In this document: piece by piece, positions 9,366 through 59,869 of the stretch
How the letters are laid out: each line of letters opens with the position of its first letter
Position numbering within the stretch: the first letter of the stretch is position 1
IMG/VR virus record: IMGVR_UViG_2816332408_000001
Span: 1 to 64,000 of that record
Source: an uncultured virus (IMG/VR IMGVR_UViG_2816332408_000001)
Lineage: Duplodnaviria > Heunggongvirae > Uroviricota > Caudoviricetes
DNA: 64,000 nucleotides
Reading direction: 5' to 3' (one strand)
The notes under the pieces: generated by a model
What the model saw: the letters and a program-made list of their open reading frames with translations, nothing else
What the model was told of the DNA's origin: nothing
Databases searched by the model: none
Translations under genes and position numbers: made by a program

Positions 9366-9395
9366 CGATGTTGCCTATGCGTATGTGGATGCAAT

Positions 9396-9424
9396 GCTAT
9401 GCACGGGCGTTGCGCGTAAAGCAA
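9396..9424 (-). promoter_or_regulatory. Leftward sigma70-type promoter
   Basis: TTGCTT-N17-CATAGC. Confidence 0.55.
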
Positions 9425-9438
9425 GCGGAAAGTGCAGG

Positions 9439-9640
9439 GATTACGCTTGGGCCTGTAATGGATGAATGTAATGAAGAAGAGTGTAATGTAGTGAAGATTA
9501 CAAGGAGAGCATTACAATGCAGAAACACAACCCGCTATAACCCCTTATTACCTTTACATGCGGCTGCCGCTTTTTTGCAAAAATAGTCTGTAATGTAATC
9601 CAGTATGATCTTAAAATAATGTGTTAATTTGTTAATATCC
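9439..9640. repeat. TGTAAT/ATTACA repeat cluster plus AT-rich tract; candidate replication origin
   Basis: About 10 exact or near copies (9439, 9454, 9467, 9482, 9496, 9510, 9546, 9553, 9589, 9594). Confidence 0.55.
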
Positions 9641-9792
9641 CCTATAGTGCTTTCTCGAGTGTTGGGCCATAGCTGGAGCATGTTTATTAGATGCTTCAGA
9701 TGTCGCCCCTACCATGGATTCCATCGGGAGTTCACCCGAATTAAAATGGTGTAACGCTCGGGTGGCGACAAAACATCGATGTTACTTTCCAC

Positions 9793-9828
9793 TTGCGATG
9801 GAGTTATTCGCTTGCTAGAAGGGGTGCA
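9793..9828 (+). promoter_or_regulatory. Rightward promoter for candidate ncRNA
   Basis: TTGCGA-N17-TAGAAG followed by GGGTGCA, the same signature as promoters at 10696, 15048 and 59869(-). Confidence 0.7.
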
Positions 9829-10255
9829 ATGCTTCGGCGTTACCTAATAGGTCTTCCAGTTTGCTTCTGCAGGGGCGCTGGACGCACCGTCTGGCAAGGG
9901 CGGCATAGTGTTAGGTCGTGTTGGAGACTGCCCTCACGGTGGGGGTCCAGGCCAGATAATATACCGTGCGCAAATGTTGAACTAATTTAACTGGATATTG
10001 GTCGTAAAAACCTGATATCTGCAACCGATGGGTCGAGAACGTGCTTCGGCAATGTCAGTAGGCCCATCGGGAGCGTCTTCGGACGTAAGTCGAGGTGTGA
10101 TCAGCCAAGACTTAGATGTGGGTCGCACTACATCTCGGGCTGCCTCCTAAGGCCCGCAAGACTGCATCAGTGCGCGTTGCTGGTGTGGTCATTGGGACAG
10201 CGTGTCCTTTGCCACCTAGTCGGCGTCGGTGCTTCGGTATCGGCGCCGATCCTTT
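9828..10255 (+). ncRNA. Candidate large structured non-coding RNA (~430 nt, ~13 tandem hairpins)
   Basis: Four cUUCGg loops, many plus-strand G-U pairs, upstream promoter, no RBS-led ORF. Confidence 0.7.
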
Positions 10256-10344
10256 GGGTCCGACAAGCCGAGGGGAGGGGCGATCCAGGATATCGGGAGG
10301 CTCGACCGATTTCAGGCGAATTGGTCGATTTATCGGGGCGGCTC

Positions 10345-10605
10345 GTTAACCATATCTGTTAGGGTTACGAACTCGTTAATCATGAATGCCGCGTTAACCG
10401 AAAGCGCGAGGACGATGTTAACCATCTCTTCCTCCATGCACCATTTTAGCACAACTGTCGGATGTATGCAACACATCATGCGTTAAGGTTAACATCTACT
10501 CGATGGGCGTTAACGGTAACAGACATGGTTAATGGGTCTGCCGATGTTGTTAAGGTTAATGGATATGGTTAACCCGCCGGCGATGTTGTTAATCATATCT
10601 GTTAG
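10345..10605. promoter_or_regulatory. Array of GTTAA(C/T)CAT motifs
   Basis: TTAACCAT at 10346(+), 10418(+), 10525(-), 10565(-); TTAATCAT at 10376 and 10589; further GTTAA copies. Confidence 0.75.
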
Positions 10606-10613
10606 TCCGAAAA

Positions 10614-10630
10614 CTGGTATGATTCTTGCT
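10614..10630 (+). promoter_or_regulatory. Sigma54 (-24/-12)-like site
   Basis: CTGGTATGATTCTTGCT, GG-N10-GC spacing. Confidence 0.45.
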
Positions 10631-10695
10631 ACGCGCACGCTTGCGCGCGCAGCTAAAGCGCATCGCAAATAAATGTGCATCGATGCGTTTTGTTA

Positions 10696-10731
10696 TTGAT
10701 TTGTTAGCATCTCGGTCGTAGAAGGGGTGCA
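10696..10731 (+). promoter_or_regulatory. Early promoter
   Basis: TTGATT-N17-TAGAAG-GGGTGCA then AAGGAGG RBS. Confidence 0.7.
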
Positions 10732-10751
10732 GCAACAAAGGAGGTAACAAA

Positions 10752-10883
10752 ATGGAAGCCGAACTTAGCTACTTCGATGGATACCATTTTCAGCACATCG
10801 CAGCCTACCGCGAGATGCAGCGTTTGCAGCGCATCCGCGTAACCGCAATTCGCGCGCTCGATCGACGCACGGTGCGCCGGTGA
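10752..10883 (+). CDS. 43-aa early peptide (MEAELSYFDG...), absent from ORF track
   Basis: AAGGAGGT RBS and promoter directly upstream. Confidence 0.7.
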   Translation: MEAELSYFDGYHFQHIAAYREMQRLQRIRVTAIRALDRRTVRR

Positions 10884-11058: not shown

Positions 11059-11478
11059 ATGGACGCAACCGAACTCAAAGTTCAGCTCGAATACCTTAGC
11101 GCGAAGCCGCTGCTCGTGCTTACCATCGACACCGAGACCCCCGAACTGCGCGGTGCTATATTCGACGCAATCAAGTTCGACGAGCAGTTCTACCTCGAGC
11201 AGCTCACCCCCGAGCNGTTCGCTGAGCTGTTGCCGCGCTGCGACCGCTTGTATATCGACGACACCTGTTGGGACGACCTTAGCGCCGATGAGATTAACGA
11301 CCAGCTAACCAAGTTCGGCGTCGAATACACCTTCAGCTTCGACCAAGTCGATTCGCCACCATTGACCTGTAGCTACGCCGACGCGGTGCAGTTTCTCGAC
11401 GATGCACGCACCCGCAACCCTGCTGGCTTCGAGGTCGAAATCGACGGAGCGAAATGGTCAGTAACCGTTAACCACTAA
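11059..11478 (+). CDS. Acidic hypothetical protein
   Basis: GGGAG RBS, 139 aa. Confidence 0.7.
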   Translation: MDATELKVQLEYLSAKPLLVLTIDTETPELRGAIFDAIKFDEQFYLEQLTPEXFAELLPRCDRLYIDDTCWDDLSADEINDQLTKFGVEYTFSFDQVDSPPLTCSYADAVQFLDDARTRNPAGFEVEIDGAKWSVTVNH

Positions 11479-11581: not shown

Positions 11582-12127
11582 ATGGTTGAATTTACGAAAG
11601 CTCAGTTCATCGCCAACCTCACCGAGAACGGTGTTGCGATCCCCCGCAAAGCGAACCTCGCTACCCTCACCGAGCTGCACAACGCGCAGTCTGTCGGCCA
11701 GCAGATGTGCCCCGGCTGCGGTATCCACCTCAGCAACGGGCACCTCACCCCCGACGACGAGGCTGCTAACATGGGTGGCGTTACCCTGTGGGAGGCGGGA
11801 CAGCAGCAGATTGAGAATAGCTGCATGGGTTGCGGGCATGAATGGGGTGCGGATCGCGGTGCATACGTCGCGCCCACCAGCACCCCGACCGGTAACGGTC
11901 TCAAGATCGAAAAGGACCGACCCGAACAGAATGGGGTGAAGCGCCCCAGCGTAGGGGGTAAGTGTCGCGCGATCTGGGACGCACTGGACAGCTACAGGGC
12001 TGAGACCGGCGAACTGCCCACCAGCAAGACCGTGAAGGAGCTTGCGGCCGACGAGGGTTGGAATCCCAACAATGCGTCGATCGAATACTACCAGTGGCGC
12101 AAGTTCAACGGTATCGCTAAGGGGTAA
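11582..12127 (+). CDS. Zn-finger protein with C-terminal domain paralogous to 58134-58694
   Basis: CPGC...CMGC; PEQNGVKRP...WRKFNG; AAGGA RBS. Confidence 0.75.
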   Translation: MVEFTKAQFIANLTENGVAIPRKANLATLTELHNAQSVGQQMCPGCGIHLSNGHLTPDDEAANMGGVTLWEAGQQQIENSCMGCGHEWGADRGAYVAPTSTPTGNGLKIEKDRPEQNGVKRPSVGGKCRAIWDALDSYRAETGELPTSKTVKELAADEGWNPNNASIEYYQWRKFNGIAKG

Positions 12128-12152
12128 CACCCCCTAGCACACCCCGACTATA

Positions 12153-12181
12153 TGCACCCCCTGCCTAGCGTAGGGGGTGCA
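12153..12181 (+). terminator. Hairpin after early gene (probable terminator)
   Basis: TGCACCCCCT...AGGGGGTGCA followed by TTGTT. Confidence 0.55.
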
Positions 12182-12404
12182 TTGTTATGACTATGATAAT
12201 AATATATTTGATTAAGATGTGTTAACCATGCGCAGCACATAGATGAGAGCGACATGGTTAACGAGTCGTTCATCATCATCGAGCCGGTCGGGGTAGGGGT
12301 CAATCTTCGGACGTCGCCGGTCGCATCCCAGCAATTTTGACTCGGCCCTATTTTTCGGTTTACATCTGATTCTTCCACCTCCTACCTGTATCTAGACTTT
12401 CCGC

Positions 12405-39458: not shown

Positions 39459-39870
39459 ATCGATGCGCAAGCGCGCTTCTGGCCTGGAGACCTTGGCTTC
39501 CGATATCGCTGTTGCGGGTGCGGATGCTATGTTGGAGGAGCTGGTGGCCGTCACTCCGGTTGACGAGTCCACCGCTCTTTCGAACTGGCAAGTTAACCTC
39601 GGGAACGCTGCCGCTGACGAACTGCCCGCAGCGGTGCTAGGCAGCAAAGGAAGCACGCGGGGCGCGAGCGCGGATAAAACGCTTGCGGAGGGCCGTGCTG
39701 AGCTGCAATACAAGAAGCCGGGGCAGCCTATCTTCCTGTCCAACCTCACCCCCTACATCGGGGATCTGGACAGCGGGTCGAGCAGGCAGTTCGCAGGCGG
39801 GNTTATCCCGCGGGCGCTGATCGTCTTTCGCCTTGCGGTGCAGGACGCCAAGAAACGATTGCTGAGGTAG
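39430..39870 (+). CDS. Tail completion protein (HK97 gp10-like)
   Basis: TPVD..A.SNW, N..PYI..L..GSS.Q. Confidence 0.8.
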   Translation: MAGDLRSLAKSMRKRASGLETLASDIAVAGADAMLEELVAVTPVDESTALSNWQVNLGNAAADELPAAVLGSKGSTRGASADKTLAEGRAELQYKKPGQPIFLSNLTPYIGDLDSGSSRQFAGGXIPRALIVFRLAVQDAKKRLLR

Positions 39871-59834: not shown

Positions 59835-59869
59835 TGCACCCCTTTTACAGGAGTTCCAAACAGACGCAA
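59835..59869 (-). promoter_or_regulatory. Early-type promoter
   Basis: TTGCGT-N16-TAAAAG-GGGTGCA. Confidence 0.65.

What the first reader, a model, noticed from the sequence alone, without database searches (positions are those of the whole stretch)
9793..10255. Candidate novel ~430-nt phage non-coding RNA built of tandem hairpins
Seen: a promoter TTGCGA-N17-TAGAAG-GGGTGCA carries the same signature as promoters feeding RBS-led genes at 10696, 15048 and 59869(-), but here no RBS or credible ORF follows. Nearly every base downstream lies in a stem: AATGC-ttcg-GCGTT (9828-41), CGCAC/GTGCG and TCTGGC/GCCAGA enclosing AGGGCGG/CTGCCCT (9883-9970), GATATT/GATATC (9994-10019), CCGATGGGTC/GGCCCATCGG capped by TGC-ttcg-GCA (10025-70), GCGTC-ttcg-GACGT (10073-86), TAAGTC/GACTTA, AGATGTGG/CTACATCT, CGGGCT/GGCCCG, a 13-bp stem with six G-U pairs (10160-90), GGGACA/TGTCCT, and a 14-bp cUUCGg stem (10219-50) followed by CCTTT. 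Four cUUCGg loops and G-U (not A-C) pairs all fall on the + strand, which points to selection on an RNA rather than on DNA palindromes. I do not recognise it as tRNA, tmRNA, RNase P, 6S, SRP or an intron. Inference: an early-expressed structural RNA, possibly an anti-defence decoy or sponge, a replication-associated RNA next to the putative origin, or a precursor of small RNAs.
Basis: partly seen in the sequence, partly recalled or inferred. Interest (0 to 1): 0.9.

Follow-up and report, generated by a model that had tools for sequence, protein, structure and literature searches.

The report
New pseudoknotted phage non-coding RNA family
This stretch encodes a roughly 430-base folded RNA, not a protein, that is conserved with matching base-pair changes in related phages of Sphingomonas, Pseudomonas, Xanthomonas and Alteromonas, matches no catalogued RNA family, and has an unknown job.

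Summary
The + strand folds better than shuffles (z -2.84); the - strand does not (z -0.90). Four CTTCGG loops are enriched (P about 1e-4).

Homologues exist in Sphingomonas phage MMDA13, Nipunavirus phages (NP1, PaMx25, JG054 and others), Alteromonas phage R7M and many uncultured relatives. They keep pairing, not a reading frame. On seven close relatives, 41 of 99 reader pairs change on both sides, and 0 of 500 shuffles reach that.

It has a 3-bp stem, a 7-bp loop-to-downstream stem and a conserved 17-nt linker. It pairs at 147 of 154 and 66 of 66 positions in 22 sequences, with 17 distinct strand pairs.

Rfam 15 gives no match. No paper found describes the RNA.

Expression and function are untested. 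My best guess is a stable, protein-binding RNA acting in trans (0.4). The main rival is a cis-acting antitermination or leader element (0.3).

The parts
9775..9781 (+). ATCGATG box upstream of the -35 element, shared with the promoter at 10696
   Evidence: Read. It is conserved in MMDA13, L010, L058 and L113.
9793..9821 (+). Promoter-like element: TTGCGA (9793-9798), 17-nt spacer, TAGAAG (9816-9821), followed by GGGGTGCA
   Evidence: The hexamer positions are kept while the spacer varies in 7 relatives (-10 is TATAAG, TAAAAG or TAGAAG). The same signature occurs at three mRNA starts. The simple sigma-70 scan does not call it. No start site was measured.
9828..10255 (+). Predicted RNA of about 428 nt
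   Evidence: z -2.84 on the + strand against -0.90 on the - strand. It is 74% identical to MMDA13 over an unannotated stretch. Covariation is seen. The ends are inferred from the promoter and terminator.
9828..9841 (+). 5'-terminal hairpin AAUGC-UUCG-GCGUU
   Evidence: In relatives the hairpin is kept in a shifted register (AUGCU-UCAG-AGCAU). This is why only 66.7% of cells pair in the fixed register.
9842..9916 (+). Long-range helix ACCUAAUA (9842-9849) / UGUUAGGU (9909-9916), enclosing a 5' sub-domain that includes the hairpin UCCAG...CUGGA (9855-9882)
   Evidence: RNAalifold on 6 relatives gives pair types such as CG:3 GC:3 and AU:3 GU:2 UA:1 at columns 20-27/87-94. An analogous helix lies before the core in the Nipunavirus group.
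9926..9928 (+). Invariant GAC just 5' of the pseudoknot
   Evidence: Invariant in 22 of 22 aligned core sequences.
9931..9944 (+). P1 stem CCC (9931-9933) / GGG (9942-9944). Its loop (9935-9941, CACGGUG) is the 5' strand of the pseudoknot
   Evidence: 66 of 66 pairs in 22 sequences, with 4 pair sets: CCC/GGG, CCG/CGG, GCC/GGC and CCU/AGG.
9945..9961 (+). 17-nt linker GUCCAGGCCAGAUAAUA, of fixed length and conserved (G39, C41, A43, A45, A47, U49 of the 67-mer)
   Evidence: No conserved pairing partner was found for it.
9962..9968 (+). 3' strand of the pseudoknot (UACCGUG), pairing with 9935-9941
   Evidence: All 7 pairs have changes on both sides. The structure (both helices) pairs in 96.3% of cells against 72.0% in shuffles, with 0 of 500 shuffles as high. 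Sliding the partner by 1 to 3 columns gives 37-49%. 147 of 154 pairs form in 22 sequences, with 17 distinct strand pairs.
9994..10208 (+). 3' array of eight hairpins: 9994-10019; 10025-10070 with inner 10042-10051; 10073-10086; 10087-10113; 10114-10135; 10136-10156; 10160-10190; 10194-10208
   Evidence: On the 7-sequence alignment these helices pair in 76-100% of cells. Pairs changed on both sides number 5/6, 7/10, 1/5, 4/5, 4/8, 4/6, 4/13 (plus 7 one-sided) and 3/6. G-U cells number 66 against 10 A-C cells.
10219..10255 (+). Terminator-like 14-bp hairpin with a UUCG loop (10219-10250) and a short U tract (10253-10255)
   Evidence: Each of 7 relatives has its own hairpin followed by TTT or TTTT at this place, with a different stem sequence. 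The simple scan does not call it because the U tract is short.
10301..10312 (+). Conserved box CTCGACCGATTT downstream of the RNA (context, probably not part of the RNA)
   Evidence: Shared with MMDA13, L012 and L015.
10345..10605 (.). Iteron field GTTAACCAT(A/C)TCT in both orientations (context: putative origin or operator)
   Evidence: The MMDA13 paper describes a 12-bp repeat here (passages, PMC7472734).

Best explanation
Shown: this is a self-contained gene for a structured non-coding RNA of about 430 nt on the + strand. It is the founding example of a family found in MMDA13-like, Nipunavirus, Amoyvirus and several uncultured siphophage lineages.

The RNA has a 5' domain whose heart is a fixed-geometry H-type pseudoknot. 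This consists of an invariant GAC, a 3-bp stem, a 7-bp stem between that hairpin's loop and a downstream stretch, and a conserved 17-nt linker between them. A lineage-specific array of hairpins follows, and in most lineages a terminator hairpin ends the RNA.

Inferred: the RNA itself is the active product. It is transcribed from a promoter of the same type as the first rightward mRNAs. It is stabilised by a 5'-terminal hairpin, tetraloop-capped stems and the 3' hairpin. It acts in trans by docking a protein, host or phage, still unidentified, on the pseudoknot and linker module, so that the protein is sequestered or recruited during infection.

I put about 0.9 on 'real selected RNA family' and about 0.4 on 'trans-acting protein-binding RNA'.
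For: RNA family:
- The region is 74% identical to an unannotated stretch of MMDA13.
- Covariation: 33 of 150 predicted pairs change on both sides in 3 sequences, 45 of 109 in 6 sequences, and 41 of 99 reader pairs in 7 sequences with 0 of 500 shuffles as high.
- A covariance model of the 67-nt core finds the same element upstream of related primase genes, at 42-83 bits in 15 of 83 sources searched plus one at 18.9 bits. It also finds the element at the far end of a circularly permuted contig, as predicted (63.5 bits).
- Strand: z-scores and the G-U against A-C count.
- Not coding.

Trans action in the window:
- The RNA has its own promoter and its own strong hairpin terminator.
- A second hairpin with a T-run lies at 10655-10700, and a separate promoter at 10696 serves the first downstream gene. 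The RNA is therefore insulated from the mRNAs.
- Many invariant unpaired motifs occur in the 3' domain (GUGUGGUCAU, CUUUGC, AGUA).
- The size and complexity resemble large stand-alone RNAs rather than short leaders (comparison from general knowledge).
- The gene sits at different places in the rightward arm: next to the divergent region in the window, after two genes in PaMx25, and after 13 genes in R7M.
Against: - No expression data. The only runs found were wastewater libraries whose contigs cover the whole phage stretch, so they say nothing.
- No partner protein is identified, and no neighbouring gene co-occurs strictly with the RNA.
- In PaMx25 and R7M the terminator is followed within about 30 nt by the RBS of the next gene. 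In L024, L042 and L049 I see no terminator at all, so there the element is part of an mRNA leader. This fits a cis role at least as well.
- The RNA is always on the same strand as the rightward genes.
- The consensus scans do not call the promoter or the terminator.
Confidence: 0.4

Rival explanations
1. A cis-acting transcription-control RNA. As it is transcribed, the pseudoknot domain engages the elongating polymerase, alone or with a phage or host factor, so that the polymerase passes the terminator that closes the element and later terminators of the long rightward arm. This is a mechanism of the put / nut / EAR type. The terminated product would be a by-product.
For: - The element is always co-oriented with and upstream of rightward genes.
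- In PaMx25, NP1 and R7M the terminator sits directly in front of the next gene's RBS with no room for a promoter, so downstream genes need read-through.
- In R7M the element starts right after the stop codon of gp13, is intercistronic, and precedes the genes leading to terminase small subunit and holin.
- In L024, L042 and L049 it runs into the next gene without a recognisable terminator.
- The downstream gene differs between lineages, so it is not a gene-specific regulator.
Against: - In the window, two hairpins with T-runs, an iteron field and a separate promoter of the same type lie between the RNA and the first gene.
- Only one copy occurs per genome, with none at the head of the leftward arm.
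- It is far larger and more elaborate than known antitermination RNAs of about 70-120 nt (recalled).
- Short U tracts could simply make the terminators leaky.
- A scan for in-line terminators downstream was uninformative: 12 found against 14.2 expected.
Confidence: 0.3
2. An origin-associated RNA. The transcript runs toward the iteron field and activates or primes replication, in the manner of ColE1 RNA II or the transcriptional activation of the lambda origin.
For: - In the window, MMDA13, L012, L015, L058, L064, L073 and L113 the RNA is followed by repeats. It lies at the strand-switch and GC-skew turning point, next to the primase/helicase module.
- A G-rich run lies at 10271-10281.
Against: - A strong hairpin ends the RNA before the repeats.
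- The G-rich run is not conserved in L010 or L073.
- In PaMx25 and R7M no repeats adjoin the RNA. In R7M it lies about 5 kb into the rightward arm.
- The conserved core is a pseudoknot far from the 3' end.
Confidence: 0.08
3. A metabolite-sensing riboswitch whose pseudoknot aptamer controls the terminator. The ligand could be a 7-deazaguanine precursor made by these Queuovirinae-type phages.
For: - It has an H-type pseudoknot core with conserved unpaired bases, and a terminator downstream.
- The named carriers belong to or stand near Queuovirinae.
Against: - There are 200-280 nt of other hairpins between the core and the terminator.
- Neither the window nor seven homologous loci match any Rfam family, and hence no riboswitch model that Rfam holds.
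- The downstream gene is not constant between lineages.
- In the window nothing is regulated by the terminator except entry into the repeats.
- CAjan (Seuratvirus, same subfamily) has no hit.
- The alternative stems show no covariation.
Confidence: 0.05
4. Not a functional RNA: DNA-level palindromes of a regulatory or origin region, a small protein gene, or chance structure.
For: - The region lies in a regulatory, repeat-rich non-coding segment.
- ORFs of 40-77 aa can be drawn in it.
- The promoter and terminator fail the simple consensus scans.
Against: - G-U cells number 66 against 10 A-C cells, and the folding z-score is strand-specific.
- Helices are kept by double changes, including a pseudoknot across lineages whose primases are only 43-47% identical to the window's (L041, L042, L049, L095, R7M).
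- ORF positions and frames are not conserved, and indels are mostly not multiples of 3.
Confidence: 0.03

Closest known systems
HK022 put RNAs and the Bacillus EAR (eps-associated) RNA: cis-acting processive antitermination RNAs (properties recalled, not tested here)
   Same: A structured RNA placed upstream of terminators in a long operon, on the same strand. EAR is intercistronic and contains a pseudoknot, as this element does in R7M and PaMx25.
   Different: Those RNAs are about 70-120 nt; this one is 200-430 nt with a different fold. There is no Rfam hit. In the window it is insulated from the operon by terminators and a second promoter. Function is untested.
Large stand-alone structured RNAs of unknown or recently emerging function that are common in phages and prophages (ROOL, GOLLD; also OLE, raiA)
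   Same: Several hundred nucleotides, many helices with covariation, conserved unpaired motifs, phage-borne, and no obvious partner gene.
   Different: No sequence or structure match to any of them in Rfam 15. No neighbouring tRNAs. Nothing is known about multimerisation.
H-type pseudoknot riboswitch aptamers (preQ1 classes, SAM-II, guanidine-III)
   Same: The same topology: a hairpin whose loop pairs with a downstream strand, with conserved linker bases.
   Different: The first stem is only 3 bp and the linker is 17 nt. There is no adjacent expression platform and no constant regulated gene. The region and its homologues match no Rfam family, and hence no riboswitch model that Rfam holds.
ColE1 RNA II (replication primer RNA)
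   Same: A multi-hairpin RNA of about 500 nt transcribed toward an origin-like repeat field, in the window's own lineage.
   Different: A terminator lies before the repeats. Adjacency to repeats is not conserved in PaMx25 or R7M. No antisense partner is evident.
Anonymous candidate structured RNAs from IMG/VR (10,006 csRNAs; PMC10690425, passages read)
   Same: The same data source and the same kind of evidence (covariation in phage intergenic regions). Pieces of this RNA may be among them.
   Different: Those candidates are 29-151 nt and unnamed. I could not search their alignment files, so any overlap is unknown. No paper I found describes this RNA as a unit.

Membership tests
Any Rfam 15 family (4227 models) | Score at or above the family's gathering threshold, or at least a suggestive E-value | tested here: not met
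   There are 0 matches at gathering threshold in the whole window. In 9400-10800 at E up to 10, only three weak hits to eukaryotic families occur; one (SNORD57, 9969-10022) falls within the RNA but outside the pseudoknot core, and two lie outside the RNA. There are 0 matches at E up to 5 in 7 homologous loci.
tRNA / tmRNA | ARAGORN detection | tested here: not met
   0 genes in the window.
Intrinsic (rho-independent) terminator | G+C-rich hairpin directly followed by a U tract | tested here: inconclusive
   A 14-bp hairpin at 10219-10250 is followed by only 3 U, and the simple scan does not call it. Seven of 7 close relatives have a different hairpin followed by TTT or TTTT at the same place. 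PaMx25 has a deposited 'terminator' feature at its counterpart.
Sigma-70-type promoter | -35 and -10 hexamers with 16-18 nt spacing, with A2 and T6 in the -10 | tested here: inconclusive
   TTGCGA-N17-TAGAAG fails the scan because T6 is missing. The hexamer positions are conserved in relatives and the same signature precedes three RBS-led genes. No start site was mapped.
Processive antitermination RNA (put / EAR type) | Acts in cis on the transcribing polymerase to suppress downstream terminators | not testable with these tools
   Only position and orientation are compatible.
Processive antitermination RNA (put / EAR type) | Family-specific fold (put: two stem-loops of about 70 nt; recalled) | tested here: not met
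   The conserved core is a pseudoknot with a 17-nt linker, and no Rfam match was found. I do not know which of these RNAs Rfam holds.
preQ1 or other pseudoknot riboswitches | Match to the aptamer model, and an adjacent expression platform in front of a constant gene class | tested here: not met
   No Rfam match. There are 200-280 nt between the core and the terminator. Downstream genes differ between lineages. Ligand binding is not testable here.
Primer or activator RNA of a replication origin (ColE1 RNA II type) | Transcript extends into the origin, and adjacency to the origin is conserved | tested here: not met
   A hairpin terminator lies before the iterons. No repeats adjoin the RNA in PaMx25 or R7M.
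Retron / reverse-transcriptase-associated ncRNA | A reverse transcriptase gene in the genome | tested here: not met
   No RVT_1 match in the 65,190-bp virus record.
Protein-coding gene | A reading frame conserved among homologues | tested here: not met
   The longest ORFs differ in frame, strand and place among 7 homologues. Only 10 of 57 indel runs are multiples of 3. MMDA13 annotates no gene here.

The most novel reading that the evidence does not exclude
A previously undescribed class of large phage RNA whose fixed-geometry pseudoknot and 17-nt linker grip the transcription machinery. The RNA alone would then set when polymerases may pass from the early part of the rightward arm into the rest. 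That would make it an RNA substitute for N/Q-type antiterminator proteins, far larger than put, and shared by phages of Alpha- and Gammaproteobacteria, including culturable Pseudomonas aeruginosa phages. Equally open is that it is a new RNP or ribozyme-like RNA of the ROOL / OLE kind.
Probability: 0.25. Interest if true: 0.85.

Novelty: categorically new. Interest (0 to 1): 0.74.

Why it matters
Large, intricately folded RNAs with strong covariation are rare, and most have turned out to be ribozymes, riboswitches or cores of RNPs. This one is not in Rfam 15, and none of the papers I could search describes it.

It has an unusually clean signature: a length-invariant pseudoknot with 17 different strand pairs in 22 sequences. 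It also occurs in phages that grow on laboratory hosts, namely MMDA13 on Sphingomonas turrisvirgatae, NP1, PaMx25, JG054 and PAJD-1 on Pseudomonas aeruginosa, and R7M on Alteromonas. Its function can therefore be tested directly by deletion, compensatory mutation, pull-down and termination assays.

Whatever it does, it fills a 400-nt 'non-coding gap' that current annotations of these therapeutic-candidate phages either leave blank or cover with doubtful small ORFs.

Tried and rejected
- Exact-pattern scans. A 22-mer found only a duplicate contig of the same phage. A 17-mer found two unrelated GC-rich contigs, L005 and L007, which alignment showed not to be homologous. A gapped pattern in genome contigs found nothing.
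- The 232-aa neighbour used as bait found only the duplicate contig.
- Expression. The look-up of sequencing runs, queried with the NP1-like locus L021, returned 20 wastewater or unlabelled runs, only one firmly labelled RNA. Contigs of 4 runs cover the flanking genes as well as the RNA gene, so they probably reflect phage DNA and say nothing about a transcript.
- Antisense target. A search for the complement of the 17-nt linker elsewhere in the window gave one 11-of-12 match at 39477, about what chance gives by my estimate.
- Partner gene. tblastn of neighbours showed the 86-aa HTH protein in carriers and non-carriers alike. The 232-aa protein is also in L016 and L072, which lack a core hit. 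Pfam and PHROGs gave no informative names.
- Reverse transcriptase: none.
- A terminator scan of the downstream arm was no different from shuffles.
- A link to 7-deazaguanine modification was considered. CAjan, in the same subfamily, has no hit.
- A literature search with a badly chosen min_terms returned only irrelevant papers.
- MAFFT misplaced R7M by one column in the 22-sequence alignment, so I counted pairs on the ungapped 67-mers in a script instead.
Full report
**What is in the window.**
- Positions 9366-10751 are a gene-free segment between a leftward replication module and the first rightward gene. The leftward module comprises a 232-aa protein, an 86-aa HTH protein and a primase/helicase. 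The first rightward gene has its ATG at 10752.
- The window is a complete 65,190-bp virus record. Its nearest named relative is Sphingomonas phage vB_StuS_MMDA13.
- The paper on that phage describes the corresponding 1186-bp non-coding region, with a 12-bp repeat and predicted promoters, but no RNA (passages read, PMC7472734).

**Check of the observation.**
- The four CTTCGG loops are real and enriched: 4 in 428 nt against 33 in the remaining 63.6 kb, P about 8.5e-5, and there is no CCGAAG in the region.
- The motif TAnAAG-GGGGTGCA occurs exactly four times: at 9819, 10722 and 15074 on the + strand and at 59844 on the - strand. Three copies lead within about 25 nt to an RBS and ATG; the copy at 9819 does not.
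- As RNA, the + strand folds to -179.9 kcal/mol against -158.8 +/- 7.4 for shuffles (z -2.84, 0 of 100 shuffles as stable). The - strand gives z -0.90, with 17 of 100 shuffles as stable.
- Against this, a plain consensus scan calls neither the promoter (the -10 ends in G) nor the terminator (three U).

**Homologues.**
- The segment window 9690-10371 is 73.9% identical to an unannotated stretch of MMDA13.
- Using the neighbouring primase/helicase as bait, I collected 43 IMG/VR loci and 51 metagenome loci.
- BLAST, nhmmer and a motif search then found the RNA in close relatives L010, L058, L064, L073 and L113 (primase 77-82% identical). They also found it in a sister group (L012, L015; 70%) and in more distant lineages: L024, L076, L027/L075, L042/L049, L095 and L041.
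- It was also found throughout the Nipunavirus genus. The NP1-like version matched 19 GenBank records: 16 Pseudomonas, 2 Xanthomonas and 1 Variovorax.
- Of the loci that hold at least 4 kb upstream of the primase gene, 23 of 55 carry the core. This is my count from the table; IMG/VR and metagenome copies of one contig are both counted.
- Whole-record searches found a weak but structurally perfect copy in Alteromonas phage R7M (Amoyvirus). They found none in CAjan (Seuratvirus), Pa-V (Iggyvirus) or Bhz55.

**It is an RNA, on this strand, and not a gene for a protein.**
Forty-one of 99 pairs change on both sides, against 22.6 expected, and 0 of 500 shuffles reach any of the five measures. Sliding the partners by 1-3 columns drops pairing to 36-45%.
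- The eight hairpins between 9994 and 10208 carry most of this signal.
- In those helices G-U cells outnumber A-C cells 66 to 10, as expected only if the + strand is the folded strand.
- ORFs that can be drawn differ in frame, strand and position among homologues, and 10 of 57 indel runs are multiples of three.

- All lineages share a 67-nt block that aligns without a single gap.
- Reading 5' to 3', the block holds:
  - an invariant GAC;
  - a 3-bp stem (window 9931-9933 with 9942-9944);
  - that hairpin's loop (9935-9941), which pairs with 9962-9968;
  - a conserved linker of exactly 17 nt (9945-9961) between the two.
- On 19 sequences the two helices pair in 96.3% of cells, against 72.0% in shuffles. 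Nine of 10 pairs change on both sides, and the covariation score is 0.673 against 0.168, with 0 of 500 shuffles as high. Slid versions pair in 37-49% of cells.
- Counted on 22 sequences including R7M, the 7-bp stem forms 147 of 154 pairs with 17 different strand pairs. The 3-bp stem forms 66 of 66 pairs with four variants.
- This is an H-type pseudoknot with a one-base first loop and a long conserved third loop. I found no conserved partner for that loop.

- Three stems of the 5' domain show no change on both sides in seven relatives: CGCAC/GTGCG, TCTGGC/GCCAGA and AGGGCGG/CTGCCCT.
- The 3' strand of the first belongs to the pseudoknot. In L058 and L064 it changes together with the loop, not with CGCAC.
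- The third uses the 5' strand of the 3-bp stem. These two are therefore probably not part of the functional fold, though an alternative conformation is not excluded.
- A long-range helix, 9842-9849 with 9909-9916, does covary and encloses a 5' sub-domain. The Nipunavirus RNAs have an analogous helix.
- The peripheral hairpins differ between lineages, and whole hairpins come and go within Nipunavirus. Total length ranges from about 210 nt (L024) to about 430 nt.

**Context.**
- In the window and its close relatives the RNA has its own promoter-like element and a hairpin with a short T-run. The hairpin's stem sequence is different in each relative.
- Downstream of the RNA in the window come, in order:
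  - a conserved box (10301-10312);
  - an iteron field (10345-10605);
  - a second hairpin with a T-run (10655-10700);
  - a second promoter of the same type (10696).
- In PaMx25 and NP1 the RNA lies between gp62 and gp63, two genes into the rightward arm. It has a conserved TTGTGC-N17-TATAGT element in front, and a hairpin (deposited as 'terminator' in PaMx25) about 30 nt before the next RBS.
- In R7M it fills the 411-nt gap between gp13 and gp14, thirteen genes into the arm. It starts right at the stop codon of gp13 and ends in a hairpin with a T-run just before gp14, RusA, terminase small subunit and holin.
- In L024, L042 and L049 I see no terminator, and the RNA abuts the next gene.
- No repeats adjoin the RNA in PaMx25 or R7M.
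- No neighbouring protein co-occurs strictly with the RNA, and the genome has no reverse transcriptase.

**How it most likely works.**
- Shown: a selected, strand-specific RNA fold with a universal pseudoknot.
- Inferred: everything about function.
- For a stand-alone, trans-acting, protein-binding RNA (my choice, about 0.4):
  - the window has its own promoter and terminator and is insulated from the mRNAs;
  - the size, the many invariant unpaired motifs and the movable position in the arm fit a stand-alone RNA.
- For a cis-acting antitermination or leader role (about 0.3):
  - orientation is constant;
  - the terminator sits in the path of essential downstream genes in Nipunavirus and R7M;
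  - some lineages lack a terminator.
- An origin role (about 0.08) is weakened because adjacency to repeats is not conserved.
- A riboswitch (about 0.05) is weakened by the long distance to the terminator and the changing downstream genes.
- A non-RNA explanation (about 0.03) is contradicted by the covariation.

**Comparison with what is known.**
- Rfam 15 gives no match for the window at gathering threshold and nothing meaningful at E up to 10. It gives no match for seven homologous loci. ARAGORN finds nothing.
- Literature searches:
  - 'Nipunavirus' + 'RNA' gave 19 papers (listing).
  - 'PaMx25' + 'transcript' gave 9 papers (listing).
  - A five-term search for phage structured RNAs held 16 papers, of which 12 were listed.
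  - None of these describes this RNA.
- I read passages of the MMDA13 paper and the R7M paper.
- I read passages of the IMG/VR survey of 10,006 candidate structured RNAs of 29-151 nt (PMC10690425). Its alignment files could not be searched, so pieces of this RNA may be among its unnamed candidates.
- I also read passages of a 2026 preprint on a phage RT-associated ncRNA array, which is unrelated.
- The resemblances to put, EAR, ROOL/GOLLD, preQ1 riboswitches and ColE1 RNA II are recalled from general knowledge and concern topology or position only.

**Verdict.** The fold needs correction in the 5' domain, where a pseudoknot is the defining feature. Expression, ends and function remain to be measured.

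Noticed in passing
window 9793, 10696, 15048 (+) and about 59869 (-): Four promoter-like sites share an extended signature: an ATCGATG-like box, TTGNNN, a 17-nt spacer, TAnAAG, then GGGGTGCA. Three lead straight into an RBS and ATG. The related contig L076 has the same signature. This may mark a regulon with a common regulator or an unusual start region.
   Followed up: partly
window 10345-10605 and 10301-10312: There is a field of GTTAACCAT(A/C)TCT repeats in both orientations. A conserved box CTCGACCGATTT lies in front of it and is shared with MMDA13, L012 and L015. This is probably an origin or operator. L073 has different repeats (CCACTATAGGG) at the same place.
   Followed up: partly
window 9616-9639; L051 2254-2385: TGTTAAT-type boxes in the divergent promoter region are shared between the window and Pseudomonas phage PaMx25, although the surrounding sequence is not alignable.
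   Followed up: no
window 9690-9790: A block about 100 nt upstream of the RNA promoter is nearly as conserved with MMDA13 as the RNA itself. Its stretch TCGCCCCTACC (9703-9713) is 10/11 complementary to GGGAGGGGCGA (10273-10283), just past the RNA's terminator. Its role is unknown.
   Followed up: no
window 10655-10700: A hairpin CGCATCG...CGATGCG flanked by AAA and TTTT, followed by TTTTGTTATT, sits directly in front of the second promoter. It may be a bidirectional terminator that insulates the promoter.
   Followed up: no
window about 11210 (ORF 11059-11478): The translation contains an X, so the window holds an ambiguous base inside this 139-aa ORF.
   Followed up: no
window 12110-12200: An inverted pair of AGGGGGTGCA with GGGGTAACACCCC-type palindromes lies in a gene-poor, AT-rich patch between rightward genes. 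Its nature is unknown.
   Followed up: no
L041, about 450-480 nt downstream of its core (RNA sense): The sequence GGTTCGAATCC, the classic tRNA T-arm motif, follows the RNA region in this distant relative. There may be a tRNA or tRNA-like gene next to the RNA there.
   Followed up: no
L051-L056 and hits H3-H21: Several GenBank Nipunavirus records annotate small 'hypothetical proteins' over the RNA gene (up to six in phage BL5). These are probably mis-annotations.
   Followed up: no
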